64,000 nucleotides of DNA from Candidatus Kuenenbacteria bacterium. Lineage in GTDB: Bacteria; Patescibacteriota; Patescibacteriia; UBA2196; GWA2-42-15. A program made the position numbers and the translations under genes. The notes under the pieces were generated by a model. The model saw only the letters and a program-made list of their open reading frames with translations. It was not told where the DNA came from and made no database searches. Position 1 is the stretch's first letter; every line of letters starts with the position of its first letter. Shown piece after piece: positions 789 to 63,997 of the stretch. The stretch is taken from NCBI GenBank assembly GCA_012797775.1, contig JAAZOM010000022.1, positions 1,241 through 65,240 of the forward strand. The letters are read 5' to 3'.

Positions 789-998
789 ATGTTAAAACAT
801 ATTATAATGGGATAAGTATTAAGTATTATGTATTGTGGGGAGAAACTTGCTCCAGCCTCGCCCAGCTGTAGTATTCCCATAATACTTGATGCATTATACT
901 TAATACTATATTTAATTTTGGCCAAAAAGTCAAAGGTACTTTTGGCATTTTTTGCTATTTTATGATAAAATTAAAAAAGAATAATTAATTTTAAAAAT

Positions 999-7776: not shown

Positions 7777-9498
7777 ATGCTTAACTGGCTCAAAAAATAC
7801 AAAACAGCCATATTTTTAGGCTTATTTTGCTTGGCCTTTTTTTGTATTTACGCTCATTTCAATCTACTGGTTATGCACCCAGACGGGGCAGGGGACAATC
7901 CAAAATTTTCTTCCCCGGACGAGACCGCCAATTATTTTTGGGCCAAAAGACTGGCCCAAGGCCAGCCGCTTTATTATTTTGAAGAGTTAAATGGTCCAGG
8001 CAACAACCTTATCCACCCGAGAAGCATCAATGTTATTGATGGCAAAAACGTACCCGGCTCTTTTCTAGGTTTGATTTTTATTTATGGTTCCCTCGCCAAA
8101 ATCCTCGGCCTCGGAGTCGTTCCCTATTTAACGCCATTTTTTTCCGCGCTCGGGATTTTCTTTTTTTATTTATTACTAAAAAAGATTTTTAATTCTACCC
8201 CTGTCGCTCTTATTCCCGCAACGCTCTTGGCTTTTACTCCAGCTTGGTTTTATTATTCCTGCCGAGGTATGTACCATAACGTACTGTTCACCAGTTTGTT
8301 GATTATGGGGGTTTATTTTTTATGGAAGGTTCTGGCGGAAGCTCCTAGCCCAAATTCCAAATCCCAAGCCCCAAATCAAAAATCAAAAATCAACAATCCA
8401 AAACTAATGTTATATTTCCTCTCCGGTCTTTTGATCAGCTTCGCTCTATTCACTCGCACTTCAGAAATTGTTTGGGCCGCCTTAACTATTTTTTTTATTT
8501 TCATTTTTCACTTTAAAAGGATCTATTGGCCCGGTTTTCTTTTATTTTTGGCCGCTGGAACGATCCCCATTATCGCCTTATTCTATCACAATCAGATTCT
8601 TTACGGTTCACTTATCTCTGCTGGTTATCGCGCCGTGAGTGATGCTGTATCTATTGGCGGCTTGGCTAGTGCTGGTGTTTTATTCCAGATTTTTGTCACC
8701 CCCTTTGGCATTCATCCCGGTTCCATTCTCACCAACGGTTTCAATTATCTTTATCAGCTTTTTCCGATTTGGGGCGCACTTTATTTTCTTGGCGCTTTCC
8801 TCTTCGCGATTCTCCCGACTCATATTATTAAAATCAATTATAAAAAAAGAATCGCTTATCTCGCTTATTGCTTACTGCTCACTGCTTATTTATTGATTTT
8901 TTATGGTTCTTGGGCGATCACTGATCGCATTGACCGGGAGACTCTCTCGCTTGGTACTTCTTATCTGCGTTATTGGCTGCCGATTTATATTGTTACCTTG
9001 CCGTTTGTCGCTACTATTATCTGGCAGCTCGCCAATTTTTTGACTCCGCTCCAAAAAAGAAAAATTTTTTATCAGTCAATTTTTTCTTTTGCCGCTTGCC
9101 TTTGCATATTTATGCCCACGATCAATGTGCTTTTGCGCCAGAGTGACGAAAGTTTGTTTCTTTTAAAAAACCTAAACGAAACTCGTGTTAAATCAGCCAT
9201 TGTTAATAAAATGGTCGGGCCAGAAGATATCGTCCTCGTCTACAAACAGGCGGATAAAATATTTTTCCCCGAACGCACTCTTTTAATTACCGAACTAGCT
9301 GTCCCTATTGATTATGAATCAGTCGCCACCTTGTCAAAAATCAGAGATGTCTATTATTATTCCTACGCCAATCCCAGAGACGTTGATTCCATCTCGCGCT
9401 TGCAATTTGCTCCATATGGATTGGAAATTGTCGAGGGGCAAAAGGTTTTTGGCAATGATAGACTTTATAAGATTAAAAAAATTAGACAAATACAGTAA
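7777..9498 (+). CDS. Polytopic membrane glycosyltransferase, GT-C fold, ArnT/PMT-like (GT39/GT83).
   Basis: More than 10 TM helices. The first extracytoplasmic loop carries the HP..DE motif (HPDGAGDNPKFSSPDETANYFWAKRL) typical of the ArnT/PMT family. Confidence 0.45.
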   Translation: MLNWLKKYKTAIFLGLFCLAFFCIYAHFNLLVMHPDGAGDNPKFSSPDETANYFWAKRLAQGQPLYYFEELNGPGNNLIHPRSINVIDGKNVPGSFLGLIFIYGSLAKILGLGVVPYLTPFFSALGIFFFYLLLKKIFNSTPVALIPATLLAFTPAWFYYSCRGMYHNVLFTSLLIMGVYFLWKVLAEAPSPNSKSQAPNQKSKINNPKLMLYFLSGLLISFALFTRTSEIVWAALTIFFIFIFHFKRIYWPGFLLFLAAGTIPIIALFYHNQILYGSLISAGYRAVSDAVSIGGLASAGVLFQIFVTPFGIHPGSILTNGFNYLYQLFPIWGALYFLGAFLFAILPTHIIKINYKKRIAYLAYCLLLTAYLLIFYGSWAITDRIDRETLSLGTSYLRYWLPIYIVTLPFVATIIWQLANFLTPLQKRKIFYQSIFSFAACLCIFMPTINVLLRQSDESLFLLKNLNETRVKSAIVNKMVGPEDIVLVYKQADKIFFPERTLLITELAVPIDYESVATLSKIRDVYYYSYANPRDVDSISRLQFAPYGLEIVEGQKVFGNDRLYKIKKIRQIQ

Positions 9499-9563
9499 CT
9501 TGTAACTCGCAAAAAGTAAAATTATCCCTTGTGCTAGTTACTAATTACGAGTTACTAGTTACC
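9494..9563. repeat. Dispersed palindromic repeat, copy A: AGTAACTTGTAACTCG, spacer, then CCTTGTGCTAGTTACTAATTACGAGTTACTAGTTACC.
   Basis: Shares about 35 of 37 nt with the copy at the window end (63956-63995). It overlaps the TAA stop of the upstream gene. Confidence 0.7.
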
Positions 9564-10193
9564 AAAAGAATTATTATGCCCATCTATAAATACATAAGAT
9601 TTATCTTAATTGCCGCCCCCATCATCTTTCTGGGCTTTTTAATATACAAAGACCTTGTCCCTAGTGGCCGCTTGATTACTAACTATGATTTTTGTGATTT
9701 AAATCCGTTCGCTTCTTCCTGGTCGCCGCATGGCCGGGTTTTGGCTATAGAAAAAATTAAAATGGGCGGCGACAAATATTGCCAACAAAAAATGGTCATT
9801 GACCCGGTTTATTTTGACATCCGCCTGCCACAAAGATTTAATGAGGCCAGGCTGACCGTCTGGTATCAAAAAAAATCTGAAACAAAATTGCAAATTGGTC
9901 CAGCCATTGATTTATCCGCCTGGCAGTGGCAATTAAAAGATATTAATTATATCCGCACCGAAAACAATTGGCAGGTCGGCGTCGCTGATTATAATATTCA
10001 ATCTTCCAAGCTAGATAATAATCGTTTGCGCTTTCTAGTTTCTTCGCCAAATATGGACACCTCTAGGCAGGAGATTATTTTTAAAAAAATAGAAATAGAA
10101 TTTATAAAAAAACCGATTACCGCTTGGCCGGATTTTATCGAAAGAGCAAAAGAATTCATCTTGTTTTCTAGATTAAAAATTATTTTTCAGTAA
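9531..10193 (+). CDS. Hypothetical protein (the real start is probably the ATG at 9576). The ORF is bracketed by repeat copies A and B.
   Basis: ORF with an N-terminal TM segment. The 5' end of the track ORF is repeat-encoded (LVTNYELLVT). Confidence 0.4.
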   Translation: MLVTNYELLVTKRIIMPIYKYIRFILIAAPIIFLGFLIYKDLVPSGRLITNYDFCDLNPFASSWSPHGRVLAIEKIKMGGDKYCQQKMVIDPVYFDIRLPQRFNEARLTVWYQKKSETKLQIGPAIDLSAWQWQLKDINYIRTENNWQVGVADYNIQSSKLDNNRLRFLVSSPNMDTSRQEIIFKKIEIEFIKKPITAWPDFIERAKEFILFSRLKIIFQ

Positions 10194-10210
10194 CTCGTAA
10201 CTAGCTACTA
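10188..10210. repeat. Dispersed palindromic repeat, copy B (partial): CAGTAACTCGTAACTAGCTAC.
   Basis: It overlaps the TAA stop of the preceding ORF and resembles the left end of copies A and D. Confidence 0.5.
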
Positions 10211-10215
10211 AAGAT

Positions 10216-10422
10216 ATGAGAGAATTTTTCAAAAAACTGATCAATGCTCTATTCTATATTTCGCTCCTTATCTGGCTGGTTTATTTTGTGCTAGAATTAC
10301 TAAAAGAAGGGTTGGTTTCCAATTACTTTGATTTAAACTTATTATTACTCTCGGTGATTGTAATCGGAGTGATAAATATTATGATTAATTATAGCAGCAA
10401 CCATGATGATACGAGAGGCTGA
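10216..10422 (+). CDS. Small hypothetical membrane protein.
   Basis: 68-aa ORF with two hydrophobic helices. Confidence 0.3.
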   Translation: MREFFKKLINALFYISLLIWLVYFVLELLKEGLVSNYFDLNLLLLSVIVIGVINIMINYSSNHDDTRG

Positions 10423-11661: not shown

Positions 11662-11692
11662 AATTAAAAATTAGAAATTTAAAATTATTCTT

Positions 11693-13936: not shown

Positions 13937-14998
13937 ATGCGGCTTTTAATGCTTACAAGGAAAGTTGACAGTCAAGACAGTCGGGCCAGTTTTGTTTCTG
14001 ACTGGCTTTTGGAATTAGCCCAAAACCTAGAAAAATTAGTAGTTATTTGCCAAGAAAAAGGCGATACCAGCGGCTTACCGGAAAACATTGAAATCTTTTC
14101 ATTGGGCAAAGAATTAGGCCATTCAAAAATCAAGCAATTTTTCCGCGCGCAGAAAATATTATTCAAGCTTGTCAAAAAAAGTGACGGCGTCTTGGCCCAC
14201 CAGATGCCTATTTATGGGGTTCTTGCTGGGCCTGCCAGTTGGCTGTCTCACAAAAAATTAATTCAATGGTATGCTCATGGTACTGTTGACTGGCGCTTAA
14301 AGTTGGCGAATTTTTTCGTGACCGAATTTGTCACCTCGTCAGCCGATGGTTTTCGAATGCCAACCAAAAAACCAGTGCGGGTTATTGGGCAGGGTATCAA
14401 CACTAATAAATTCAAAATTCAAAATTCAAAACTCAAAGCAAATGAAGAATTTAATATTTTGACTATTGGTCGTATTTCACCGAGTAAAGATATTGAATCC
14501 ATGATCAAGGCTGTTTATGAATTAAAAGAACAGAATGTCGATAATATAAAATTAACTATCATTGGCGCACCAGCTACGGCCGCTGGTTTTCATTATTCCC
14601 AAAATCTTCAGTCTATGGTGGAGAACATGAATCTGGGCAACCAAATCAATTTTTTTGGCGGCATTCCTCACGCTGAAACAATAAAGCATTTAGCTCAAGC
14701 TGATTTATTTTTAAATTTGAGTGATACAGGTAGTTTGGACAAAACCGTTTTGGAAGCTATGGCTGCTGGTTGCCTAGTCTTGACGAGCAATATTGCTTAC
14801 AAAAATATTTTGCCGCCTGAATTATTCACCACCAAAGACAACCCCCAAACCTTGACCCAAAAGATTAAAGAATTGATGGGCTTATCAGAACAAAAAAAAG
14901 AGGAGTTTAAAAAACAATTACGCGATGAAGTCCTCGCCCATCACAACTTGGCCGACTTTGCCAAAAAAATTGTAGGATTATATAGTAATTTATCCTGA
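13937..14998 (+). CDS. Glycosyltransferase family 4.
   Basis: GT4 C-terminal core: GRISPSKDI...EAMAAGCLVLTS. Confidence 0.65.
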   Translation: MRLLMLTRKVDSQDSRASFVSDWLLELAQNLEKLVVICQEKGDTSGLPENIEIFSLGKELGHSKIKQFFRAQKILFKLVKKSDGVLAHQMPIYGVLAGPASWLSHKKLIQWYAHGTVDWRLKLANFFVTEFVTSSADGFRMPTKKPVRVIGQGINTNKFKIQNSKLKANEEFNILTIGRISPSKDIESMIKAVYELKEQNVDNIKLTIIGAPATAAGFHYSQNLQSMVENMNLGNQINFFGGIPHAETIKHLAQADLFLNLSDTGSLDKTVLEAMAAGCLVLTSNIAYKNILPPELFTTKDNPQTLTQKIKELMGLSEQKKEEFKKQLRDEVLAHHNLADFAKKIVGLYSNLS

Positions 14999-15961: not shown

Positions 15962-17251
15962 ATGAAAATATTAATCGTCGCTTATAAATTTGGTACCGAA
16001 AAAGAGCTGGGCGAACACCTGGGCACCTATCATTATTTTATAGAAATCGCCCGCCGTCTTGTTGCTTCGGGACACGAGATTGCTGTGATTGCGCCCTGGC
16101 TTTCTTTTTCAAAAAAAGGCAGTGGTGGATTTGATGGCGTCAAAGTAATTCGTTACTATCCGCCGCTCTGGCATAAAATTTGGGCTTTCCCTTTCAACCG
16201 CCTCTTGCGCTTTTCGTATATTTGGGCTACCCAGAGGCAAGTCTTGAAATTTAATAAAAAAGAAAAGCCCGACGCTATTTTTGTCTGGCAGGCTAGGGAA
16301 ACTGGTTATGCCGTTGCCCAGCTAAAAAATAAAATAAAAACACCTTTTATCTTTCGCCAGATCACCACTTGGCACTGGCATTTTGAAAGGGGACCAAAAG
16401 AAATTTTTGGCCAGCGCTCTTGGTACAAGGCCATAAAAAATTTAGGGCTCGGGCGTCTGGTTGATTATCTTTTAAATTTTCTACTTGATCAAAAAACTCA
16501 AAAAAGATATGCTCGTGAGATTTATCAAAAAGCAGATAAGGTTGTTTTTTTGAGTCAGGTGGCTGCGGCCGAAGGCCTTGATATGGGGCTAGACAATGAC
16601 AAGGTTGACACCTTGCCGGTCTCCATAGAGACTGATTTGTTTCAGCCATTAAATAAAAAAAATGACTTACGCCAAAAGCTAGGTATCAATGGAGACAAGG
16701 TTATTTTATTTATTGGCCGCATAAATTTTGCCGAAAAGGGTATTGGTTATCTGCTCGAAGCTCTGCCGTCAATAATTACCGAGATTCCCGGAGTAAATTT
16801 GGTCATTGTCGGCAGTGGCGGGGAAACCCCGCGCATGATGGCCATGATCAAAGATTTGCAGATAGAAAAAAATGTCCAATTGGTTGGCAGTAAATCTTTT
16901 TATCAATTGATCGATTATCTCAATGCCGCAGATGTTTTTGCTACCCCGTCGGTCTGGATGGAAGCTTTTGGCCAAGTGACGATCGAAGCTATGGCTTGCG
17001 GTTTGCCAGTAGTCACCTCTGACGCCGGCGCTAGCCCAGAGATAAATATTAATAATGAGACTGGTTTTATCGTCCCAGCCAAAAACAAAGAAGCGCTCGC
17101 CGAGGCCCTTACCCAAATTTTAAAAGATGACCAACTGGCTGAGAGGTTTGGCCGAGAGGGCCGGCAAAGAGTTTTGGAAAATTATACTTATGAAGTTGTG
17201 ATTGAAAAACTTTTAGCGATTATTCAATCTATAAAAAATAAAACCCGATGA
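15962..17251 (+). CDS. Glycosyltransferase family 4.
   Basis: EAFGQVTIEAMACGLPVVTSD..ETGFIV. Confidence 0.65.
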   Translation: MKILIVAYKFGTEKELGEHLGTYHYFIEIARRLVASGHEIAVIAPWLSFSKKGSGGFDGVKVIRYYPPLWHKIWAFPFNRLLRFSYIWATQRQVLKFNKKEKPDAIFVWQARETGYAVAQLKNKIKTPFIFRQITTWHWHFERGPKEIFGQRSWYKAIKNLGLGRLVDYLLNFLLDQKTQKRYAREIYQKADKVVFLSQVAAAEGLDMGLDNDKVDTLPVSIETDLFQPLNKKNDLRQKLGINGDKVILFIGRINFAEKGIGYLLEALPSIITEIPGVNLVIVGSGGETPRMMAMIKDLQIEKNVQLVGSKSFYQLIDYLNAADVFATPSVWMEAFGQVTIEAMACGLPVVTSDAGASPEININNETGFIVPAKNKEALAEALTQILKDDQLAERFGREGRQRVLENYTYEVVIEKLLAIIQSIKNKTR

Positions 17252-43086: not shown

Positions 43087-44209
43087 AAATATTTATTTCC
43101 TTATTAATCTGGGTTTTTAGTGAAAAATTATCAACCACAAACCGTCTGGCACTTTCTCCCAGCTTTCTCTGTCGATCATCATCATTGATTATTGATAATA
43201 TTTTTTTGCGTATATCTTCAAAATTATTTTCTGTGAGTAGCCCCGTCTCTCCATCTTTGATTATTTCTTTTGTGCCTTCCACCCTCGTTCCAATACAGGC
43301 GAGACCCATACTCATTGCTTCCAAAAGTGATTTTGGCATCCCTTCATAAAGCGATGGCAAAACATAAATTTTATATTTATTTAATAATTTTGGCAATTCG
43401 TCATTCGGTCGCCGGCCAGTGAAGGTTAATTCTACCTTCAGCCCCTCGGCCAACCTTTCTAATTCTTTTTTTAATAATTCACTTTTTTCATCCATTGGGC
43501 CGCCGATTATATCTAGGGCGATATCCGTACCCTCGAGTGCCCTTATTAAAGTATTCAGATTTTTTTGTTCTTCAATTTTGCCAGAATAGGTGATTCTTCG
43601 GTCGTGTTTATCGCTGGTTTCTGGTGCAAATTTATCCGTATCAATATAATTGGCGATTACTTCTATTTTCTCGGGTTTAATTTTATATTTCTCTAGTAAA
43701 TATTGCCGATCACCTTCCGAGGTCACCAGCGCCGCATCGGCCAGAGCGTAGGCAATTCTTTCCCACCAGATTATTTTTTTATCCGCCTTGCCCTTTTGCT
43801 TCACCTGAAAAAGCGACTGCGTCCAACCAGTTCGGAGTATTAATTTACCCCTTGGTTTTATGATTTTAGCAACTAACGCTGCCCGGGCTTTTAACTGATT
43901 TGTTTTCCAGAAATTGCACTCCCTAACTTTTTTCCAATTTAAAAAAGGCAAAAGCCAGCGGTAATCCCTGGCTCTCATGCGCCATTTTTTGTAAACAATT
44001 TCAATGTTCGGCGCCAGATACTTGGCATAGTGCAACTCTTCCCGACCATCGTAAGTGAATAAATAAATTTTTTTAAAATATTGCGCCAGAATATTATAAG
44101 GCGCTATTTCTCTTGTCAGTATACCCGCCTTATCCCAATTTTTTAGGCTCATCTTTTCTGTCAAAAAAAATCCCAAAATTTTTTCCTTTAGCTTAGCACT
44201 ATTATTCAT
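43061..44209 (-). CDS. Glycosyltransferase family 4.
   Basis: EGMPKSLLEAMSMGLACIGTRV..ETGLL. Confidence 0.65.
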   Translation of the reverse strand: MNNSAKLKEKILGFFLTEKMSLKNWDKAGILTREIAPYNILAQYFKKIYLFTYDGREELHYAKYLAPNIEIVYKKWRMRARDYRWLLPFLNWKKVRECNFWKTNQLKARAALVAKIIKPRGKLILRTGWTQSLFQVKQKGKADKKIIWWERIAYALADAALVTSEGDRQYLLEKYKIKPEKIEVIANYIDTDKFAPETSDKHDRRITYSGKIEEQKNLNTLIRALEGTDIALDIIGGPMDEKSELLKKELERLAEGLKVELTFTGRRPNDELPKLLNKYKIYVLPSLYEGMPKSLLEAMSMGLACIGTRVEGTKEIIKDGETGLLTENNFEDIRKKILSIINDDDRQRKLGESARRFVVDNFSLKTQINKEINIYEKLISKN

Positions 44210-44234
44210 AATTCTTTATTCTTAATTCATCGTC

Positions 44235-56122: not shown

Positions 56123-57565
56123 ATGCCCCAAAAATTTGCCACTCGTTTTGCCCCCAGCCCCACCGGGGACTTGCATATTGGCGGTTTGCGTACCGCTCTT
56201 TTCGCCTATCTTTTTGCCAAAAAAAATCAAGGCAAATTTTTCTTGCGCATTGAGGATACGGACCAGACGCGATACAAGGAGGGGAGTGTTGAGGGCATTA
56301 TCGCCGGTCTAAAATGGGCTGGGCTTCATTATGATGACGAAATAGTTTATCAATCAAAAAGAACAGAAATTTATCAAAAGCATGCGGCCGAATTGGTAGA
56401 AAGTGGGCACGCTTATCATTGTTTTTGCACCGCTGACGATCTGGCCAGCATGCGCCAAGAACAAACGGCTGATGGTAATACGGTCACGCGCTATGATCGT
56501 CGTTGTCTAAACCTCACACCCGAGGAAGTCAAATCAAGATTAGACTCCGGCGTGCCACACGTTATCCGTCTCAAGGTGCCGAGTGGTGAAACAGAATTTA
56601 CCGATTTAATTCGCGGCCAAGTTAAAATTAATAATGCTGATATTGATGACCAGATTCTCCTCAAGTCAGATGGCTTTCCGACTTACCACCTGGCCAATGT
56701 CATAGACGACCACGAGATGGGCATCACCCACGTCATCCGTGCTGAAGAGTGGCTACCCTCCACACCCAAACACATTATTCTTTACCAGATGTTTGGCTGG
56801 GAGATCCCCGAGTTTGTTCACCTGTCAATGATTCTCGCTCCAGACAGAACCAAGCTGTCCAAACGCCATGGTGCCACTTCTGTTTTGGAGTTTAAAAATC
56901 TTGGTTATTTACCCGAGGCAGTAGTCAACTACATTGCCCTTCTCGGCTGGAATCCCGGTACGGAACAGGAAATTTTTTCTCTGAAAGAATTGGAACATGA
57001 ATTTGATCTCGCCAAAGTCAATAAAGCCGGCGCGATTTTTGATATTGAAAAACTCAACTGGATGAACGGCCACTATATCCGGCAGAAAAGTTTGGATGAG
57101 CTCACTCATTTATGTATTCCTTGTCTGGATAATTATTTACAAACCAATTACCAGCTACAAGTTACTAGTTATTCTTTTGAATTTCTGAAATCGATCGTCG
57201 GCCTAGAACAAGAGCGTCTCAAGAAGCTCTCTGAAATAGGGGAGCGAACCAAATACTTTTTTACCCGCCCCACAGTTGACCCCAAAACGTTAGTCTGGAA
57301 AAAATCCACGCCCGCAGAAACCCAAGAGAGATTGAAATTTTTGGTAGAATTTCTCGCCACGATTCCTGAAGAAAACTGGACCAGAAACACCCTGGAAGAA
57401 ATTTTAATTGACGAAATAAAGCGCCGTGGCTTTGGCAATGGCGACACCTTGTGGCCGATGCGCGTGGCCCTATCCGGCGAAGAAAAGTCTCCCTCGCCTT
57501 TTGAAATCGCCGAAGTTTTGGGGAAAGAAGAGACGCTAAAGAGATTAAAATTGATCCAAGGATAA
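56123..57565 (+). CDS. gltX: Glutamate--tRNA ligase.
   Basis: RFAPSPTGDLHIGGLRTA (HIGH) and KLSKR (KMSKS). Confidence 0.9.
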   Translation: MPQKFATRFAPSPTGDLHIGGLRTALFAYLFAKKNQGKFFLRIEDTDQTRYKEGSVEGIIAGLKWAGLHYDDEIVYQSKRTEIYQKHAAELVESGHAYHCFCTADDLASMRQEQTADGNTVTRYDRRCLNLTPEEVKSRLDSGVPHVIRLKVPSGETEFTDLIRGQVKINNADIDDQILLKSDGFPTYHLANVIDDHEMGITHVIRAEEWLPSTPKHIILYQMFGWEIPEFVHLSMILAPDRTKLSKRHGATSVLEFKNLGYLPEAVVNYIALLGWNPGTEQEIFSLKELEHEFDLAKVNKAGAIFDIEKLNWMNGHYIRQKSLDELTHLCIPCLDNYLQTNYQLQVTSYSFEFLKSIVGLEQERLKKLSEIGERTKYFFTRPTVDPKTLVWKKSTPAETQERLKFLVEFLATIPEENWTRNTLEEILIDEIKRRGFGNGDTLWPMRVALSGEEKSPSPFEIAEVLGKEETLKRLKLIQG

Positions 57566-58212: not shown

Positions 58213-59310
58213 ATGAAAATTTGCCTCATCAATAATCTCTACCCACCCTACAATCGCGGTGGCGCTGAGCGGGTAGTAGAAAACCAAGCCCAAGAATTTG
58301 TGACCGCTGGCCATGAGGTTTTTATTATTACCTCGAGGCCGATACAAGACCGCTCTCAAGCAGGCTCAGAAAAAATTAAAGTCTATCGCTTTTTTCCTCC
58401 CAATATCATTTCCTATTACCACCTGCAAAAATTACCCTTTCCGCTCCGCGCCCCGTGGCGTCTCTTTGACACTTTTAATTTTCACTCCTATTTTAAAATC
58501 AAAAAAATATTGCAAACAGAAAAGCCAGATATTGTCTATGCCCACAACCTAACAGGCCTTGGTCTTCTTATTCCGCGTTTAATTAAAAAATTGAAAATAA
58601 AATATACTCAAACCATGCATGATGTGGTCGGTATCCGCCCGAGCGGCCTTTTGCTTTATGGTCAGGAAAAAGAAAATATTTTTATCAAATTTTGGACCAG
58701 CTTGAATCGCTGGCTGTATAGCTCTCCAGACAAGGTTATCTTTCCGTCAGTATGGCTAAAAAAATATTATGAAGGGCATAAATTCTTCCCGCATGGCCCA
58801 AAAGAGGCTGCACAGAATTTCTACTTGCCATCAGCCAATCTATTGTTGAATAAGAAATTAAAATCCCCAGACAAAGTCACTTTTCTTTACATCGGTCAAA
58901 TCGAAAGCCACAAGGGCATTCTATTTTTAATCCAAACCCTAAACGAGTTACTAGTTACTAGTTATGAGTTACTCATTCTGGGTTCTGGCTCCCAGCTTGA
59001 ATCAGCCAAAGACCTAGCCAAAAGTAATTCACAGATCAAATTCCTCGGTTATCAGCCCAAAGAAAAGATTCAAGAATATTTAAAACAAGCCGACTACACC
59101 ATTGTCCCGTCTCTATGTTATGAGGCCTCACCTACTGTTATTTTTGAGAGCTTGGCTGTTGGTGTGCCTGTTATCGCTTCAAATCTCGGCGGCATCCCCG
59201 AATTAATCAGGGTAGGGGAGAAGGGTTATTTGTTTGAGCCGGGTAATAAAAAGCAGTTGTTAGAAATTATTGAAGATATTTATGCCACAAACCAAAATGC
59301 AAAAAATTAA
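58213..59310 (+). CDS. Glycosyltransferase family 4. It contains a dispersed-repeat-derived segment in-frame.
   Basis: N-terminal NRGGAERVV and C-terminal EASPTVIFESLAVGVPVIAS. Confidence 0.65.
   Translation: MKICLINNLYPPYNRGGAERVVENQAQEFVTAGHEVFIITSRPIQDRSQAGSEKIKVYRFFPPNIISYYHLQKLPFPLRAPWRLFDTFNFHSYFKIKKILQTEKPDIVYAHNLTGLGLLIPRLIKKLKIKYTQTMHDVVGIRPSGLLLYGQEKENIFIKFWTSLNRWLYSSPDKVIFPSVWLKKYYEGHKFFPHGPKEAAQNFYLPSANLLLNKKLKSPDKVTFLYIGQIESHKGILFLIQTLNELLVTSYELLILGSGSQLESAKDLAKSNSQIKFLGYQPKEKIQEYLKQADYTIVPSLCYEASPTVIFESLAVGVPVIASNLGGIPELIRVGEKGYLFEPGNKKQLLEIIEDIYATNQNAKN
58942..58976. repeat. Dispersed palindromic repeat, copy C, embedded in-frame in the GT4 CDS: ACGAGTTACTAGTTACTAGTTATGAGTTACTCAT, encoding ELLVTSYELL.
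   Basis: The same GTTACTAGTTAC units as copies A and D. Confidence 0.55.
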
Positions 59311-61812: not shown

Positions 61813-62283
61813 ATGCTTGAAGAACGTTTTAAAATCACCCCGGCTTCATATTTATTTCTCATCAATGATAAAAATGAATTGCTTTTAGGTTTGCGACAGA
61901 ATACCGGCTATCGCGATGGACAACATGAGGTGCCCGCCGGTCACATTGAGGCAGGGGAATCTTTTGTTGATTGCATTGTCAGAGAGGCCAAAGAGGAAGC
62001 TAATGTAGAAATAAAAACGGAAGACCTAAAAATCGCTCATATTTTACATCGACTAAAGAGCGATGAAGAAGAGCCGGATAAAAACCTTCGTCAACGCCTA
62101 GATGTATTTTATATTGCCAAAAAGTGGTCTGGCGAAATCAACAATAATGAATCCAGCAAATGCGCTTATTGGCGCTGGTTTCCCCTAGATAAATTGCCCG
62201 ACAATATTTTCCCTTATGTTAAATTCGCCCTAGAACAATATCAAAGAGGCGTCATGCTCAGCGAAATAGGGTTTAAAAATTAA
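61813..62283 (+). CDS. NUDIX hydrolase.
   Basis: Nudix box GHIEAGESFVDCIVREAKEEANV. Confidence 0.65.
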   Translation: MLEERFKITPASYLFLINDKNELLLGLRQNTGYRDGQHEVPAGHIEAGESFVDCIVREAKEEANVEIKTEDLKIAHILHRLKSDEEEPDKNLRQRLDVFYIAKKWSGEINNNESSKCAYWRWFPLDKLPDNIFPYVKFALEQYQRGVMLSEIGFKN

Positions 62284-62303
62284 AAATTAGAAACTTTACT
62301 CAT

Positions 62304-63016: not shown

Positions 63017-63883
63017 ATGCCCTTTCTTATTGACAGCCACGCCCATGTGAATTTCAACGCTTTCAAAGACGACGGAGAAGAAATTATCCGTCGTTCTTTG
63101 ACTAAAGGTATCTGGATGGTCAATGTCGGTTCACAGCATGATACCTCCAAACGCGCTTTGGAAATTGCCAATCAATATGACGAGGGCGTTTATGCCGCTA
63201 TTGGGCTACACCCGATTCATTTATCGCACACCGAAGTTGACGAAGAAGAAATTCATTTTCAGACCCGTGAGGAACAGTTTGATGAAAATAAATATCAAGC
63301 TCTAATTGACGCTGACAAAAATCATAAAATCGTGGCCGTAGGGGAGATTGGCCTTGATTATTTTCATATTCCGGCAGAGATGACCCTGGAAGAAGTGAGA
63401 AATCGTCAAGCACCAGATTTTATCAAACAGCTACATTTTGCCGCCAAAAATAATCTGCCAGTGATTATCCACTGCCGCGATTCTGAGCGTGGCAAATTTG
63501 ACGCTTATCGAGATACTTTGGACATCCTGAAAGCAGAAATAAAAAATGGTTTGCAACTACGGGGCATCAAGCACAGCTTTGACGGCGATCTAAAGATTGC
63601 CGAAGAGTTTTTTCAATTGGGATTTTACATCAGCTTTACCGGCGTGATTACTTTTGGCAAAAATGCTGAAGATTTGCGCCAGCTAGTCAAAGCTTTACCC
63701 TTAGATAAAATATTAGTAGAAACCGATTGCCCCTATTTGGCTCCGGCCCCCCATCGCGGCGAGCGCAATGAACCAAGTTTTGTCGAATTTACCGCCCAAA
63801 AAATCGCGGAATTAAAAAATATTTCTTTGGATAAGGTTGCTGAAACTACTATGGAAAATACAAAAGATTTATTTAAATTTTAG
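63017..63883 (+). CDS. tatD: TatD-family metal-dependent hydrolase (DNase).
   Basis: IDSHAHV, VGEIGLDY, IIHCRD and ETDCPYLAP. Confidence 0.85.
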   Translation: MPFLIDSHAHVNFNAFKDDGEEIIRRSLTKGIWMVNVGSQHDTSKRALEIANQYDEGVYAAIGLHPIHLSHTEVDEEEIHFQTREEQFDENKYQALIDADKNHKIVAVGEIGLDYFHIPAEMTLEEVRNRQAPDFIKQLHFAAKNNLPVIIHCRDSERGKFDAYRDTLDILKAEIKNGLQLRGIKHSFDGDLKIAEEFFQLGFYISFTGVITFGKNAEDLRQLVKALPLDKILVETDCPYLAPAPHRGERNEPSFVEFTAQKIAELKNISLDKVAETTMENTKDLFKF

Positions 63884-63887
63884 GTCG

Positions 63888-63997
63888 AGTAACTTGTAAC
63901 TAGTAACTCGTAATTAGTAAATGGTAGAATTTTTATTTTAAATAAAATAACAGTCCTTGTGCTAGTTACTAGTTACGAGTTACTAATTACTGCCTTG
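63888..63997. repeat. Dispersed palindromic repeat, copy D. It has left and right arms of GTAACT/AGTTAC-type units around a 27-nt AT-rich spacer and is truncated by the window end.
   Basis: The right arm CCTTGTGCTAGTTACTAGTTACGAGTTACTAATTAC matches copy A at about 35 of 37 nt. Confidence 0.7.

What the first reader, a model, noticed from the sequence alone, without database searches (positions are those of the whole stretch)
9494..10210. Dispersed palindromic GTTACTAGTAAC-unit repeats that overlap stop codons and bracket a small ORF like a cassette.
Seen directly in four places: copy A 9494-9563, copy B 10188-10210, copy C 58942-58976 and copy D 63888-63997. All are built from units such as AGTAACTTGTAACT / GTTACTAGTTACGAGTTACT, and GTTACTAGTAAC is itself a perfect palindrome. 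The right arms of A and D match at about 35 of 37 nt. In A, B and D the TAA stop of the upstream gene is part of the repeat (..CAG TAA CTTGTAACT..). The ORF at 9531/9576-10193 is flanked by A and B, and its track-predicted N-terminus is repeat-encoded (LVTNYELLVT). Copy D has an arm-spacer-arm (hairpin) layout. This behaves like a REP/RPE-type miniature palindromic element family that tolerates being translated. It could also be a terminator or recombination site delimiting an inserted gene.
Basis: seen in the sequence. Interest (0 to 1): 0.65.

Follow-up and report, generated by a model that had tools for sequence, protein, structure and literature searches.

The report
Heptamer-repeat hairpins between genes
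A candidate-phylum bacterium (Candidatus Kuenenbacteria) carries a small family of spacers built from tandem 7-base units (AGTTACN) that fold into hairpins between the stop of one gene and the start of the next; this is a new example of the poorly understood bacterial heptamer repeats, not a gene cassette boundary.

Summary
The repeats are real and far above chance. They were mis-described, though. The unit is a tandem heptamer, AGTTACN (NGTAACT on the other strand), not a palindromic 12-mer; the exact GTTACTAGTAAC is absent from the window. The window holds seven arrays at five sites. Two are hairpins (A 9494-9563, D 63888-63991) and one is a collapsed single arm (B 10189-10209). Two are in-frame coding tracts, C in a GT4 glycosyltransferase and a missed copy E in gltX (57146-57173).

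Each hairpin nearly fills a stop-to-start spacer. At A and B the upstream TAA lies in the first NGTAACT unit; at D the stop is a TAG just upstream. The next ATG follows the right arm by 11-12 nt.

The "bracketed" 205-aa ORF is syntenic in all relatives found, so it is not a cassette. Its repeat-encoded N-terminus comes from a GTG start that relatives do not share. No terminator, integrase or transposase was found.

The elements come and go among relatives. Unit changes are concerted and one stem change is compensatory. Period-7 arrays in general are over-represented here.

The closest known class is the intergenic heptameric repeats (cyanobacterial STRR, Beggiatoa TAACTGA, Xanthomonas GGGAATC), whose function is unknown. 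AGTTACN arrays also occur in many phyla, there with the opposite arm order.

The parts
9494..9509 (+). Site A, left arm: AGTAACT TGTAACT CG. The TAA at 9496-9498 is the stop codon of the 573-aa GT39-like gene (7777-9498).
9510..9526 (+). Site A, loop (AT-rich, not conserved with D or with the relatives' loops).
9527..9563 (+). Site A, right-arm module: head CCTTGTGCT plus AGTTACT AATTACG AGTTACT AGTTACC. 12 nt later comes ATG 9576 of the conserved 205-aa gene.
10189..10209 (+). Site B: single arm AGTAACT CGTAACT AGCTACT. TAA 10191-10193 is the stop of the 205-aa gene, and ATG 10216 follows 6 nt after the array. The relative L206 has a full hairpin at this junction; L204 and L215 have none.
57146..57173 (+).
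58943..58973 (+). Site C: AGTTACT AGTTACT AGTTATG AGTTACT inside the GT4 glycosyltransferase gene, translated ELLVTSYELL, in the only stop-free frame. The orthologous DNA in L212 is another period-7 array, (GAATTAN)4.
63888..63922 (+). Site D, left arm: AGTAACT TGTAACT AGTAACT CGTAATT AGTAAAT, with stop codons in all three frames. It starts 4 nt after the TAG stop of tatD (63881-63883).
63923..63954 (+). Site D, loop (AT-rich).
63955..63991 (+). Site D, right-arm module: CCTTGTGCT plus AGTTACT AGTTACG AGTTACT AATTACT. The ATG of an mraY-like gene (Pfam Glycos_transf_4) follows 11 nt later, at window-equivalent position 64003, just outside the window.
8349..8403 (+). Related feature: other period-7 arrays (CCCAAAT, AAATCAA) in the hypervariable loop of the GT39-like gene. 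At this place L202 carries 57 extra nt ending in four AGTTACN units, and L204 also ends this loop with AGTTACN units.

Best explanation
The elements are a lineage-restricted family of spacers derived from a heptanucleotide tandem repeat (unit AGTTACN, complement NGTAACT). They occur in a sublineage of Candidatus Kuenenbacteria.

Layout (shown). A short run of NGTAACT units begins at or right after the stop codon of the upstream gene. An AT-rich loop follows. Then comes a module of about 37 nt (CCTTGTGCT plus four AGTTACN units) that ends 6-12 nt before the next start codon. The two runs pair, so the polycistronic mRNA (or single-stranded DNA) would form a stem of 12-20 or more base pairs that takes up nearly the whole spacer.

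Origin and turnover (shown as pattern, mechanism inferred). I infer that arrays arise and are homogenised by slippage or gene conversion in a 7-nt register. AGTWACT is its own reverse complement except for the central base, which makes inverted arms easy to evolve. Copies appear, collapse and vanish among close relatives.

Where they survive (shown). They sit at tight operon junctions. Inside genes they sit only in loops or segments where the one or two stop-free frames of the AGTTACN strand can be read.

Effect on the host (inferred, not shown). The NGTAACT arm supplies the upstream gene's stop, with stops in two or three frames. The stem would bring that stop next to the following AUG. Ribosome hand-over or coupling between cistrons would then survive a 70-120 nt insertion. 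Alternatively the stem is a double-strand RNase or stability site. On this reading the elements are tolerated or mildly modulatory rather than essential.

They are not cassette boundaries, terminators or recombination sites.
For: Heptamer nature and significance:
- Seven arrays in phase. Motif counts 20 vs 0.77 and 8 vs 0.
- Period-7 arrays of at least 3 units: 9 in the window vs 0.2 in shuffles, with at most one for any period from 8 to 12.
- 14 per 100 kb here vs 4.9 per 100 kb in about 1 Mb of MetG-anchored relatives.

Hairpins:
- A z -3.65, D z -4.93; L204 A, z -6.48.
- One C-G to A-U compensatory change between the orthologous A stems of the window and L204; a U.U mismatch in the window is an A-U pair in L204.

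Position:
- The stop lies in the first unit at window A and B and at L204 A, L204 10232 and L206 B. At D the array TAA is in frame two codons after the TAG.
- An ATG follows the right arm by 6-12 nt at window A, D, L204 A and L206 B.
- Hairpin junctions are 77 and 119 nt; the median co-directional spacer in the window is 18 nt.

Copies of one master sequence:
- All arms align in one register with the shared ..TTACGAGTTAC.. core.
- The 14-mer CTTGTGCTAGTTAC is found only in this sublineage among 338 loci, on both strands.

Turnover:
- A is present in the window, L202 and L204 but absent in L215. L206 has an extra gene at that junction and no array. B is a full hairpin in L206, collapsed in the window, and absent in L204 and L215.
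- A 57-nt in-frame difference ending in four AGTTACN units separates the window from L202, which is otherwise 95-97% identical.
- In about 1 Mb of relatives with 58-82% MetG identity, only three minimal two-unit matches occur.
- Concerted change: all four units at site C are AGTTA in the window and AATTA in L212, with array length unchanged.

Not a cassette: synteny and the conserved start at ATG 9576.

No mobile-element genes in the window or the 10 kb beyond.

Known class with the same behaviour: PMC4679880 (TAACTGA repeats next to start codons), PMC4692102 (heptameric repeats between the same genes in two Xanthomonas species, with length and sequence variation and some inverted pairs), PMC12721329 (a heptameric repeat forming an RNase III-processed 5'-UTR hairpin).
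Against: - No transcript or protein data, so every statement about an mRNA effect is inference.
- Presence/absence among close relatives argues against an essential role and fits neutrality equally well.
- The identical irregular unit order at different loci and in genomes only about 70% alike (window A right arm vs L206 B right arm) is more easily explained by copying of an element than by local slippage.
- The non-heptamer head CCTTGTGCT is unexplained.
- In other phyla the arm order is the reverse. A sequence-specific function tied to the NGTAACT arm next to start codons would therefore not carry over to this lineage.
- Only 74 kb of this genome was seen, so the genome-wide distribution is unknown.
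Confidence: 0.55

Rival explanations
1. A conventional non-autonomous mobile element (REP/REPIN- or MITE-like). A transposase encoded elsewhere in the genome copies the ~37-nt module, and the heptamer look is simply the sequence of that element.
For: The module has a non-repeat head (CCTTGTGCT) and occurs in both orientations. The same irregular unit order occurs at different loci and in genomes about 70% alike. Presence/absence varies at orthologous junctions. A different 39-nt GC-rich palindrome sits in frame inside one array in L214/L215, so small insertions into these tracts do occur.
Against: No transposase, RAYT or integrase domain in the window or the 10 kb beyond. The arms do not begin with the GTAG or CGTC tag of the REP super-families defined in PMC3733652 (read). 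I saw no target-site duplications. Unit-level concerted change at constant length and a general excess of period-7 arrays with unrelated units point to a register-7 process rather than transposition.
Confidence: 0.2
2. A selected cis-regulatory RNA element. The heptamer stem would be a processing or translation-control site. One model is RNase III cleavage, as in the Haemophilus hmw 5'-UTR. Another is a binding array for S1, a cold-shock protein or a CsrA-like protein, as proposed for TAACTGA repeats. Either would set the expression ratio of the flanking cistrons.
For: A compensatory stem change between orthologues. Strict placement from stop to start. In the broad sample, ORFs start within 15 nt after NGTAACT-oriented arrays 33 times against 9 for the other orientation. 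There is a strong arm-order bias, while control heptamers form no inverted pairs. The genome is poor in Shine-Dalgarno motifs: 9 of 64 ORFs have one. Precedents: PMC12721329, PMC4679880 and bioRxiv 10.1101/2022.06.06.494920.
Against: The elements are missing at the same junctions in close relatives. The flanking genes share no obvious functional theme beyond the general content of the window. The arm order here is the reverse of the common one. No candidate binding protein or RNase III gene was examined.
Confidence: 0.15
3. Phase-variable contingency repeats. Gain or loss of a 7-nt unit would switch envelope-glycan genes on or off.
For: The sites lie in or next to glycosyltransferase and envelope genes. 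The window and the 95-97% identical L202 differ in a loop of the GT39-like gene. Heptanucleotide phase variation is known in Haemophilus hmw (PMC12721329).
Against: The tracts are short (2-5 units) and imperfect. The L202 difference is 57 nt, which keeps the frame. A and B are identical in the window, L001 and L202. Site C has four units in both the window and L212. One tract lies in the essential gltX gene. The window is dominated by glycan genes anyway, so the association carries little weight.
Confidence: 0.06
4. Intrinsic transcription terminators or integron-like attC recombination sites that delimit an inserted gene.
For: A hairpin directly after a stop codon at A and D. D is followed by TTGTTTTT.
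Against: The terminator scan flags none of the elements. The stems are AT-rich, and three of the four hairpins lack a T-run. The downstream start lies 6-12 nt away inside an apparently continuous operon. The 205-aa gene is syntenic with or without the repeats. No integrase was found, and the arms do not fit the attC core pattern RYYYAAC/GTTRRRY (pattern recalled from memory; arms read).
Confidence: 0.03

Closest known systems
TAACTGA heptamer direct repeats of marine Beggiatoaceae, cyanobacteria and some Bacteroidetes (MacGregor 2015, PMC4679880)
   Same: Tandem 7-nt units that share the TAACT core (NGTAACT read as TAACTNG). They are mostly intergenic, lie within a few nucleotides of start codons, and have stop codons on one strand. 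They are scattered across unrelated phyla, follow strain-specific paths with 7-nt indels, and are occasionally translated. Function is unknown.
   Different: The unit differs. TAACTAG, the N=T form of the unit here, was listed in that paper as never occurring in tandem in the Beggiatoa genome studied. In that genome the TAACTGA sets are almost all direct runs (169 direct sets, one inverted). Here the arrays form inverted pairs, carry a non-repeat head, and have the AGTTACN strand, not the TAACT strand, next to the start codon.
Intergenic heptameric repeats of Xanthomonas (GGGAATC) and Nostoc (GGGGAYT) (Rehm et al. 2015, PMC4692102); cyanobacterial STRR heptanucleotides (Mazel et al. 1990, recalled from memory; the Calothrix report is cited in PMC4692102)
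   Same: Lineage-specific over-representation of period-7 repeats in intergenic DNA. The repeats lie between the same genes in related species but vary in length and sequence, and some occur as inverted pairs able to form stem-loops. Polymerase slippage in a 7-nt register has been proposed.
   Different: Those units are G-rich and were studied as quadruplex formers. Here the unit is AT-rich and nearly self-complementary, and it makes ordinary hairpins.
Haemophilus influenzae hmw 5'-UTR (ATCTTTC)n hairpin processed by RNase III (PMC12721329)
   Same: A heptameric repeat is transcribed and forms one arm of a long RNA hairpin just upstream of a coding region. This is an experimentally shown way for such a repeat to act.
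   Different: There the second arm is a unique G-rich segment, tracts are long (11 units or more) and phase-variable, and the site is a 5'-UTR downstream of a promoter. Here both arms are repeats, tracts are short, and the site is between cistrons. No RNase III evidence exists here.
REP/REPIN elements and Rickettsia palindromic elements (RPE)
   Same: Small dispersed palindromic elements at gene ends. RPEs can be translated in frame inside genes.
   Different: No GTAG/CGTC tag, no RAYT gene seen, and no sequence relation. The elements are built from a tandem heptamer, and the coding copies C and E are not demonstrable insertions.
Small dispersed repeats inserted in tandem heptamers in Nostoc punctiforme (Elhai et al. 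2008; recalled from memory, paper not held)
   Same: In L214/L215 a 39-nt GC-rich palindrome interrupts an AGTTACN array. This is the same nesting of a mini-element inside a heptamer tract.
   Different: That feature is in a relative, not in the window, and the inserted sequence was not compared with the Nostoc families.

Membership tests
Bacterial heptameric tandem-repeat families (LSSR/STRR/TAACTGA class) | Head-to-tail copies of a 7-nt unit, more frequent than chance and than other periods | tested here: met
   Seven arrays in phase. Nine period-7 arrays vs 0.2 in shuffles, with at most one for any period from 8 to 12. TRF reports period 7 for A, C and D.
Bacterial heptameric tandem-repeat families (LSSR/STRR/TAACTGA class) | Mainly intergenic, close to start or stop codons | tested here: met
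   A, B and D nearly fill stop-to-start spacers. In the broad sample about 85% of arrays lie outside long ORFs, and orientation is biased relative to starts and stops.
Bacterial heptameric tandem-repeat families (LSSR/STRR/TAACTGA class) | Same junctions in relatives but variable unit number and sequence; lineage-restricted abundance | tested here: met
REP / REPIN (RAYT-associated) | Conserved GTAG or CGTC tag at the 5' end of the palindrome (PMC3733652) | tested here: not met
   The arms begin CAGTAACT.. or CCTTGTGCTAGTTACT..; neither end carries the tag (read).
REP / REPIN (RAYT-associated) | A RAYT (Y1 transposase) gene in the genome | not testable with these tools
   None in the window or the 10 kb beyond it.
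Rickettsia palindromic elements (RPE) | An element of about 100-150 bp inserted in frame into genes, seen as an insertion relative to homologues | tested here: not met
   C aligns residue for residue with homologues, with no gap. E lies in a loop of variable length, with no clean insertion boundary. There is no sequence relation to RPEs.
Integron gene cassette / attC | The cassette ORF is present or absent as a unit; an integrase is nearby; attC has the RYYYAAC...GTTRRRY cores | tested here: not met
   The 205-aa ORF is syntenic in all relatives found. No integrase. The arms do not fit the core pattern (pattern from memory; arms read).
Intrinsic (Rho-independent) terminator | A G+C-rich stem followed by a U-run | tested here: not met
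   Not flagged by the scan. AT-rich stems; a T-run only after D.
Phase-variable contingency locus | Unit-number heterogeneity that shifts a reading frame or a promoter spacing | tested here: inconclusive
   No length difference at A or B among the window, L001 and L202, nor at C between the window and L212. The only difference seen is 57 nt and keeps the frame. Read-level data are not available.
Any Rfam RNA family | A match at the family's gathering score | tested here: not met
   Only tRNA-Ser in the window. At A and D there are only sub-threshold long-hairpin matches to plant microRNA precursor models.

The most novel reading that the evidence does not exclude
AGTTACN/NGTAACT heptamer hairpins may be a cross-phylum class of cis-element with a fixed polarity: the AGTTACN arm 5', and the stop-rich NGTAACT arm 3' and abutting a start codon. 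A conserved component would read them, for example the ribosome or S1 in Shine-Dalgarno-poor lineages, a cold-shock protein, or RNase III. The Kuenenbacteria family would then be an inverted-polarity derivative that donates the upstream stop codon instead. On this reading, heptamer repeats would be a general and so far unrecognised layer of control at the start of translation, not slippage debris.
Probability: 0.15. Interest if true: 0.7.

Novelty: new member of a known kind. Interest (0 to 1): 0.4.

Why it matters
Heptanucleotide repeats are the most over-represented long simple repeats in many bacteria. Thirty-five years after their first description, their function is still unknown. This locus adds three things.

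- It is an example from the Candidate Phyla Radiation. I found no paper describing such repeats there.
- The anatomy is unusually clean: stop codon in the first unit, hairpin, then the start codon. Gain, collapse and loss can be followed among relatives.
- It led to a testable regularity. In two independent collections, inverted AGTTACN arrays almost always have one arm order, while composition-matched heptamers form no inverted pairs.

There are practical consequences too. Such tracts mislead gene callers (the false repeat-encoded N-terminus here). They also create in-frame variable loops in essential proteins.

Tried and rejected
- **Rfam.** At gathering score the only match in the window is tRNA-Ser. 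A permissive E-value search around A and D gave only sub-threshold matches, mostly to plant microRNA precursor models, which reflect a generic long hairpin.
- **Promoter and terminator scans** around A, B and D flagged none of the elements. I considered a promoter made of TTGTGC plus a downstream hexamer. I dropped it because no hexamer with an acceptable -10 pattern lies at 16-18 nt.
- **MetG-anchored relatives** (80 loci, about 1 Mb) were meant for synteny at C, D and E. They proved too distant: gltX and GT4 are not adjacent to metG there, and tatD is not followed by mraY. They served only as a negative control for the arrays.
- **Random-position control** for distance to start codons was invalid, because internal in-frame start codons inside genes count as hits. 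I replaced it with the comparison of the two orientations.
- **Literature.** String searches for AGTTACNAGTTAC variants found only primers. Elhai et al. 2008 is not held.
- **Pfam.** No domain for the 205-aa, 68-aa and 573-aa proteins at the locus. Their function was not pursued further.
- **Not used.** Structure prediction, the representative-protein search and the plasmid/phage/E. coli BLAST collections did not bear on the question.
- **Limit on cross-phylum counts.** The number and taxonomic distribution of genomes with AGTTACN arrays are therefore only a sample.
Full report
**1. What is in the sequence**

The repeating unit is a tandem heptamer, AGTTACN, read as NGTAACT on the other strand.

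A phase-aware scan finds seven arrays in the window:
- 9494-9507, NGTAACT on the + strand, 2 units.
- 9536-9563, AGTTACN on the + strand, 4 units.
- 10189-10202, NGTAACT, 2 units plus a degenerate third.
- 57146-57173, AGTTACN, 4 degenerate units.
- 58946-58973, AGTTACN, 4 units.
- 63888-63922, NGTAACT, 5 units.
- 63964-63991, AGTTACN, 4 units.

The motif counts are far above chance: 20 vs 0.77 and 8 vs 0. The "perfect palindrome" GTTACTAGTAAC does not occur. Only the one-mismatch direct-repeat forms GTTACTAGTTAC and GTAACTAGTAAC do.

A and D fold into hairpins: -18.8 kcal/mol (z -3.65) and -37.5 kcal/mol (z -4.93). B, C and E do not fold significantly.

The right arms of A and D match at 34 of 37 nt. 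They share a non-heptamer head, CCTTGTGCT.

**2. Organism and setting**

A public record of the 573-aa protein upstream of A, 100% identical over 94% of its length, is named Candidatus Kuenenbacteria (Patescibacteria), NCBI locus tag GYA54_02890. The first 19.5 kb and a later 20.9-kb stretch of a 91.7-kb ENA contig were fetched. The first stretch matches the window at 99.995%, and the second agrees with it at site D.

The window is a ribosomal-protein block followed by a large envelope-glycan cluster and housekeeping genes. I scanned most ORFs against Pfam and also used the contig records' own Pfam hits. No transposase, integrase or RAYT domain appeared in the window or the 10 kb beyond it.

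The genome rarely uses Shine-Dalgarno motifs: 9 of 64 ORFs have one. The median spacer between co-directional genes is 18 nt.

**3. Anatomy of the intergenic copies**

- At A, the TAA stop of the GT39-like gene (9496-9498) lies in the first NGTAACT unit. The right arm ends 12 nt before ATG 9576.
- At B, TAA 10191-10193 again lies in the first unit, and ATG 10216 follows 6 nt after the array.
- At D, tatD ends with TAG 63881-63883, 4 nt before the array. The array's first TAA is in frame two codons later.
- The D right arm is followed after 11 nt by the ATG of an mraY-like gene, just outside the window.

The hairpin junctions are 77 and 119 nt long. The element therefore accounts for nearly all of the excess over a normal spacer. 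The NGTAACT arms carry stops in two (A) or three (B, D) frames.

**4. The "bracketed ORF" is not a cassette**

The 205-aa gene lies downstream of the same GT39-like gene in relatives at 90% (L202/L203) and about 70% protein identity (L204/L205, L206-L209, L215). In L206-L209 one extra gene lies between them. Its conserved start is the ATG at 9576, and the GTG-9531 extension (MLVTNYELLVT...) is not shared. The only gene on record in the public collection is the 205-aa product from that ATG.

The repeats, by contrast, vary:
- Hairpin A is identical in L202. In L204 it is present with diverged units. It is absent in L215. L206 has an extra gene at that junction and no array.
- Junction B is a full hairpin in L206, a collapsed single arm in the window and L202, and absent in L204 and L215.
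- Between the orthologous A stems of the window and L204, a C-G pair is replaced by A-U. A U.U mismatch in the window is an A-U pair in L204.

**5. Copies of one master sequence**

When all arms are aligned, with left arms reverse-complemented, they fall in one register with a common ..TTACGAGTTAC.. core. The window A right arm and the L206 B right arm are identical over the 28-nt array apart from its last base, although they lie at different junctions in genomes about 70% alike.

The 14-mer CTTGTGCTAGTTAC occurs only in this sublineage among the 338 loci fetched. That includes an inverted solitary copy right after a stop codon in L204.

About 1 Mb of more distant Kuenenbacteria-like loci (58-82% MetG identity) holds essentially no AGTTACN arrays. 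These loci do show a general excess of period-7 arrays, 4.9 per 100 kb, against 14 per 100 kb in the window and 0.6 per 100 kb for period 8.

**6. The coding copies**

*Site C* (GT4 glycosyltransferase) is not an insertion. ELLVTSYELL aligns without gaps to ..RITNYELW....RVTDYELH.. and similar segments in homologues. It is read in the only stop-free frame. In L212, the contig that encodes the closest GT4 and gltX homologues found, the orthologous DNA is another four-unit period-7 array: GAATTAA GAATTAC GAATTAT GAATTAT. All four units have AATTA where the window has AGTTA. That is concerted change at constant length.

*Site E* (gltX) lies in a loop that is hypervariable among relatives. The closest ones (83-89% identity) have unrelated sequence there. 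Some at 60-72% identity have ..LVTNYRLRITDY.. or ..GLQVTSY...

*The GT39-like gene* has a third such loop. L202 carries 57 extra nt there, ending in four AGTTACN units. Several relatives translate such tracts as ..KLLVTSY... In L214/L215 the array is split by an in-frame 39-nt GC-rich palindrome.

So the tracts can be translated. The evidence is for fast turnover in tolerant loops, not for clean RPE-like insertions.

**7. Beyond this lineage**

The hits came from many phyla: cyanobacteria, Acidobacteriota, Chloroflexota, Planctomycetota, Bacteroidota (including cultured Dysgonomonas, Prevotella and Bacteroides), Patescibacteria, gamma-proteobacteria and others. Several genomes were hit repeatedly.

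In viral contigs the pattern occurs in 71 stretches, against 33 and 19 for two composition-matched control heptamers. AGTTACN is therefore only 2-4 times enriched over other heptamers. Tandem heptamers in general are common.

Three regularities stand out:
- Inverted pairs of arrays are frequent for AGTTACN: 16 in the genome sample and 16 in the viral sample. They are absent for the controls (0 among 55 arrays).
- Their order is almost always AGTTACN arm first, NGTAACT arm second: 16 to 0 and 13 to 3. The three viral exceptions share near-identical flanks and look like one element seen in three contigs. All four Kuenenbacteria hairpins have the opposite order.
- For all arrays of three or more units taken singly, ORFs start within 15 nt after the NGTAACT-oriented end 33 times, against 9 for the other orientation. 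Long ORFs end just before AGTTACN-oriented arrays 63 times, against 31.

I cannot explain the polarity.

**8. Comparison with what is known**

The class is known:
- Heptanucleotide repeats are reported as the most over-represented long simple repeats in many bacteria (Mrazek et al. 2007, as cited in PMC4679880 and PMC4692102).
- TAACTGA repeats lie just upstream of start codons in Beggiatoaceae, cyanobacteria and some Bacteroidetes (PMC4679880).
- G-rich heptamers lie between the same genes, with variable length, in Xanthomonas and Nostoc, sometimes as inverted pairs (PMC4692102).
- Heptamers next to start codons in Nostoc have some reporter evidence of an effect (bioRxiv 10.1101/2022.06.06.494920).
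- The Haemophilus hmw (ATCTTTC)n tract forms a 5'-UTR hairpin processed by RNase III (PMC12721329).

No paper in the library contains the AGTTACN strings other than as primers. Searches for repeats of this kind in Patescibacteria returned nothing relevant.

Membership in REP/REPIN, RPE, attC, intrinsic-terminator or any Rfam family was tested and not met.

**9. Verdict**

It is wrong about the cassette, the terminator and the recombination site.

The best-supported account is a lineage-specific, heptamer-repeat-derived hairpin spacer. It sits between stop and start codons, evolves by slippage or conversion in a 7-nt register, and is tolerated because it supplies the stop and leaves the next start accessible. 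Any regulatory role, such as RNase III processing or translational coupling, is inferred only.

It is a new member of a known but functionally unexplained kind. The cross-phylum arm-order rule is the most interesting loose end.

Noticed in passing
window 813-834, 8349-8403, 8863-8888, 11662-11687, 14408-14437, 44204-44228, 62273-62293: Other period-7 tandem arrays with unrelated units (TAAGTAT, CCCAAAT/AAATCAA, GCTTAYT, AATTARA, AAATTCA, ATTCTTA, TTAAAAA). Some are in coding loops. Two lie directly upstream of start codons (11693 and 62304). Period 7 is the only long period over-represented in the window.
   Followed up: partly
L002-L121 and L216-L286 (other phyla and viral contigs): Inverted AGTTACN arrays have the order AGTTACN arm then NGTAACT arm 29 times, against 3 for the reverse (the 3 look like one element seen in three contigs). 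Control heptamers form no inverted pairs. The window's lineage has the rare order. About half of the 16 hairpins in the genome sample abut a start codon.
   Followed up: partly
L214 10581-10654 and L215 2271-2344: A 39-nt GC-rich palindrome (CCCGCCTCG...CGAGGCGGG) is inserted in frame inside an AGTTACN array in the GT39-like gene of a relative. It is translated as PPRVDERQRVEAGQ. This recalls the small dispersed repeats nested in heptamer tracts in Nostoc (recalled from memory).
   Followed up: no
gltX loop, window 57120-57190; homologues P0256, P0261, P0277: The same gltX loop in other Patescibacteria carries peptides such as ..IPAQAGIQ.. and ..DSRFHGNDK... From memory these resemble translations of other miniature palindromic elements, so the loop may be a general hot spot for small in-frame insertions.
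   Followed up: no
whole window (64 ORFs): Only 9 of 64 ORFs have a Shine-Dalgarno-like motif within 20 nt upstream. Most starts are preceded by AT-rich strings such as ATAATT or AAAATT.
   Followed up: partly
window 9576-10193, 10216-10422 and 7777-9498: Three conserved syntenic genes with no Pfam match. The 573-aa protein has distant homologues annotated as GT39/PMT_2-type glycosyltransferases. The 205-aa and 68-aa products have hydrophobic N-terminal segments. The 68-aa ORF overlaps the start of the following GNAT gene by 20 nt.
   Followed up: partly
L028 1351-1441 (Prochloron chromosome OZ240666.1): A 13-unit NGTAACT array lies next to what looks like the 3' end of a tRNA gene on the other strand. 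This Prochloron genome gave four separate hits among the 120 rows returned.
   Followed up: no
L204 10233-10431: The 198-nt spacer between the dTDP-sugar isomerase-like gene and the EamA gene holds an inverted solitary right-arm module, CCCAAAT-like units, and four AATTAGN-like units just before the ATG. The orthologous window spacer (11662-11692) is 31 nt and keeps only the AATTARA units.
   Followed up: partly
window 16144-16157: AGTAATTCGTTACT is a lone two-mismatch match to the motif inside a glycosyltransferase gene. It is most likely chance.
   Followed up: no
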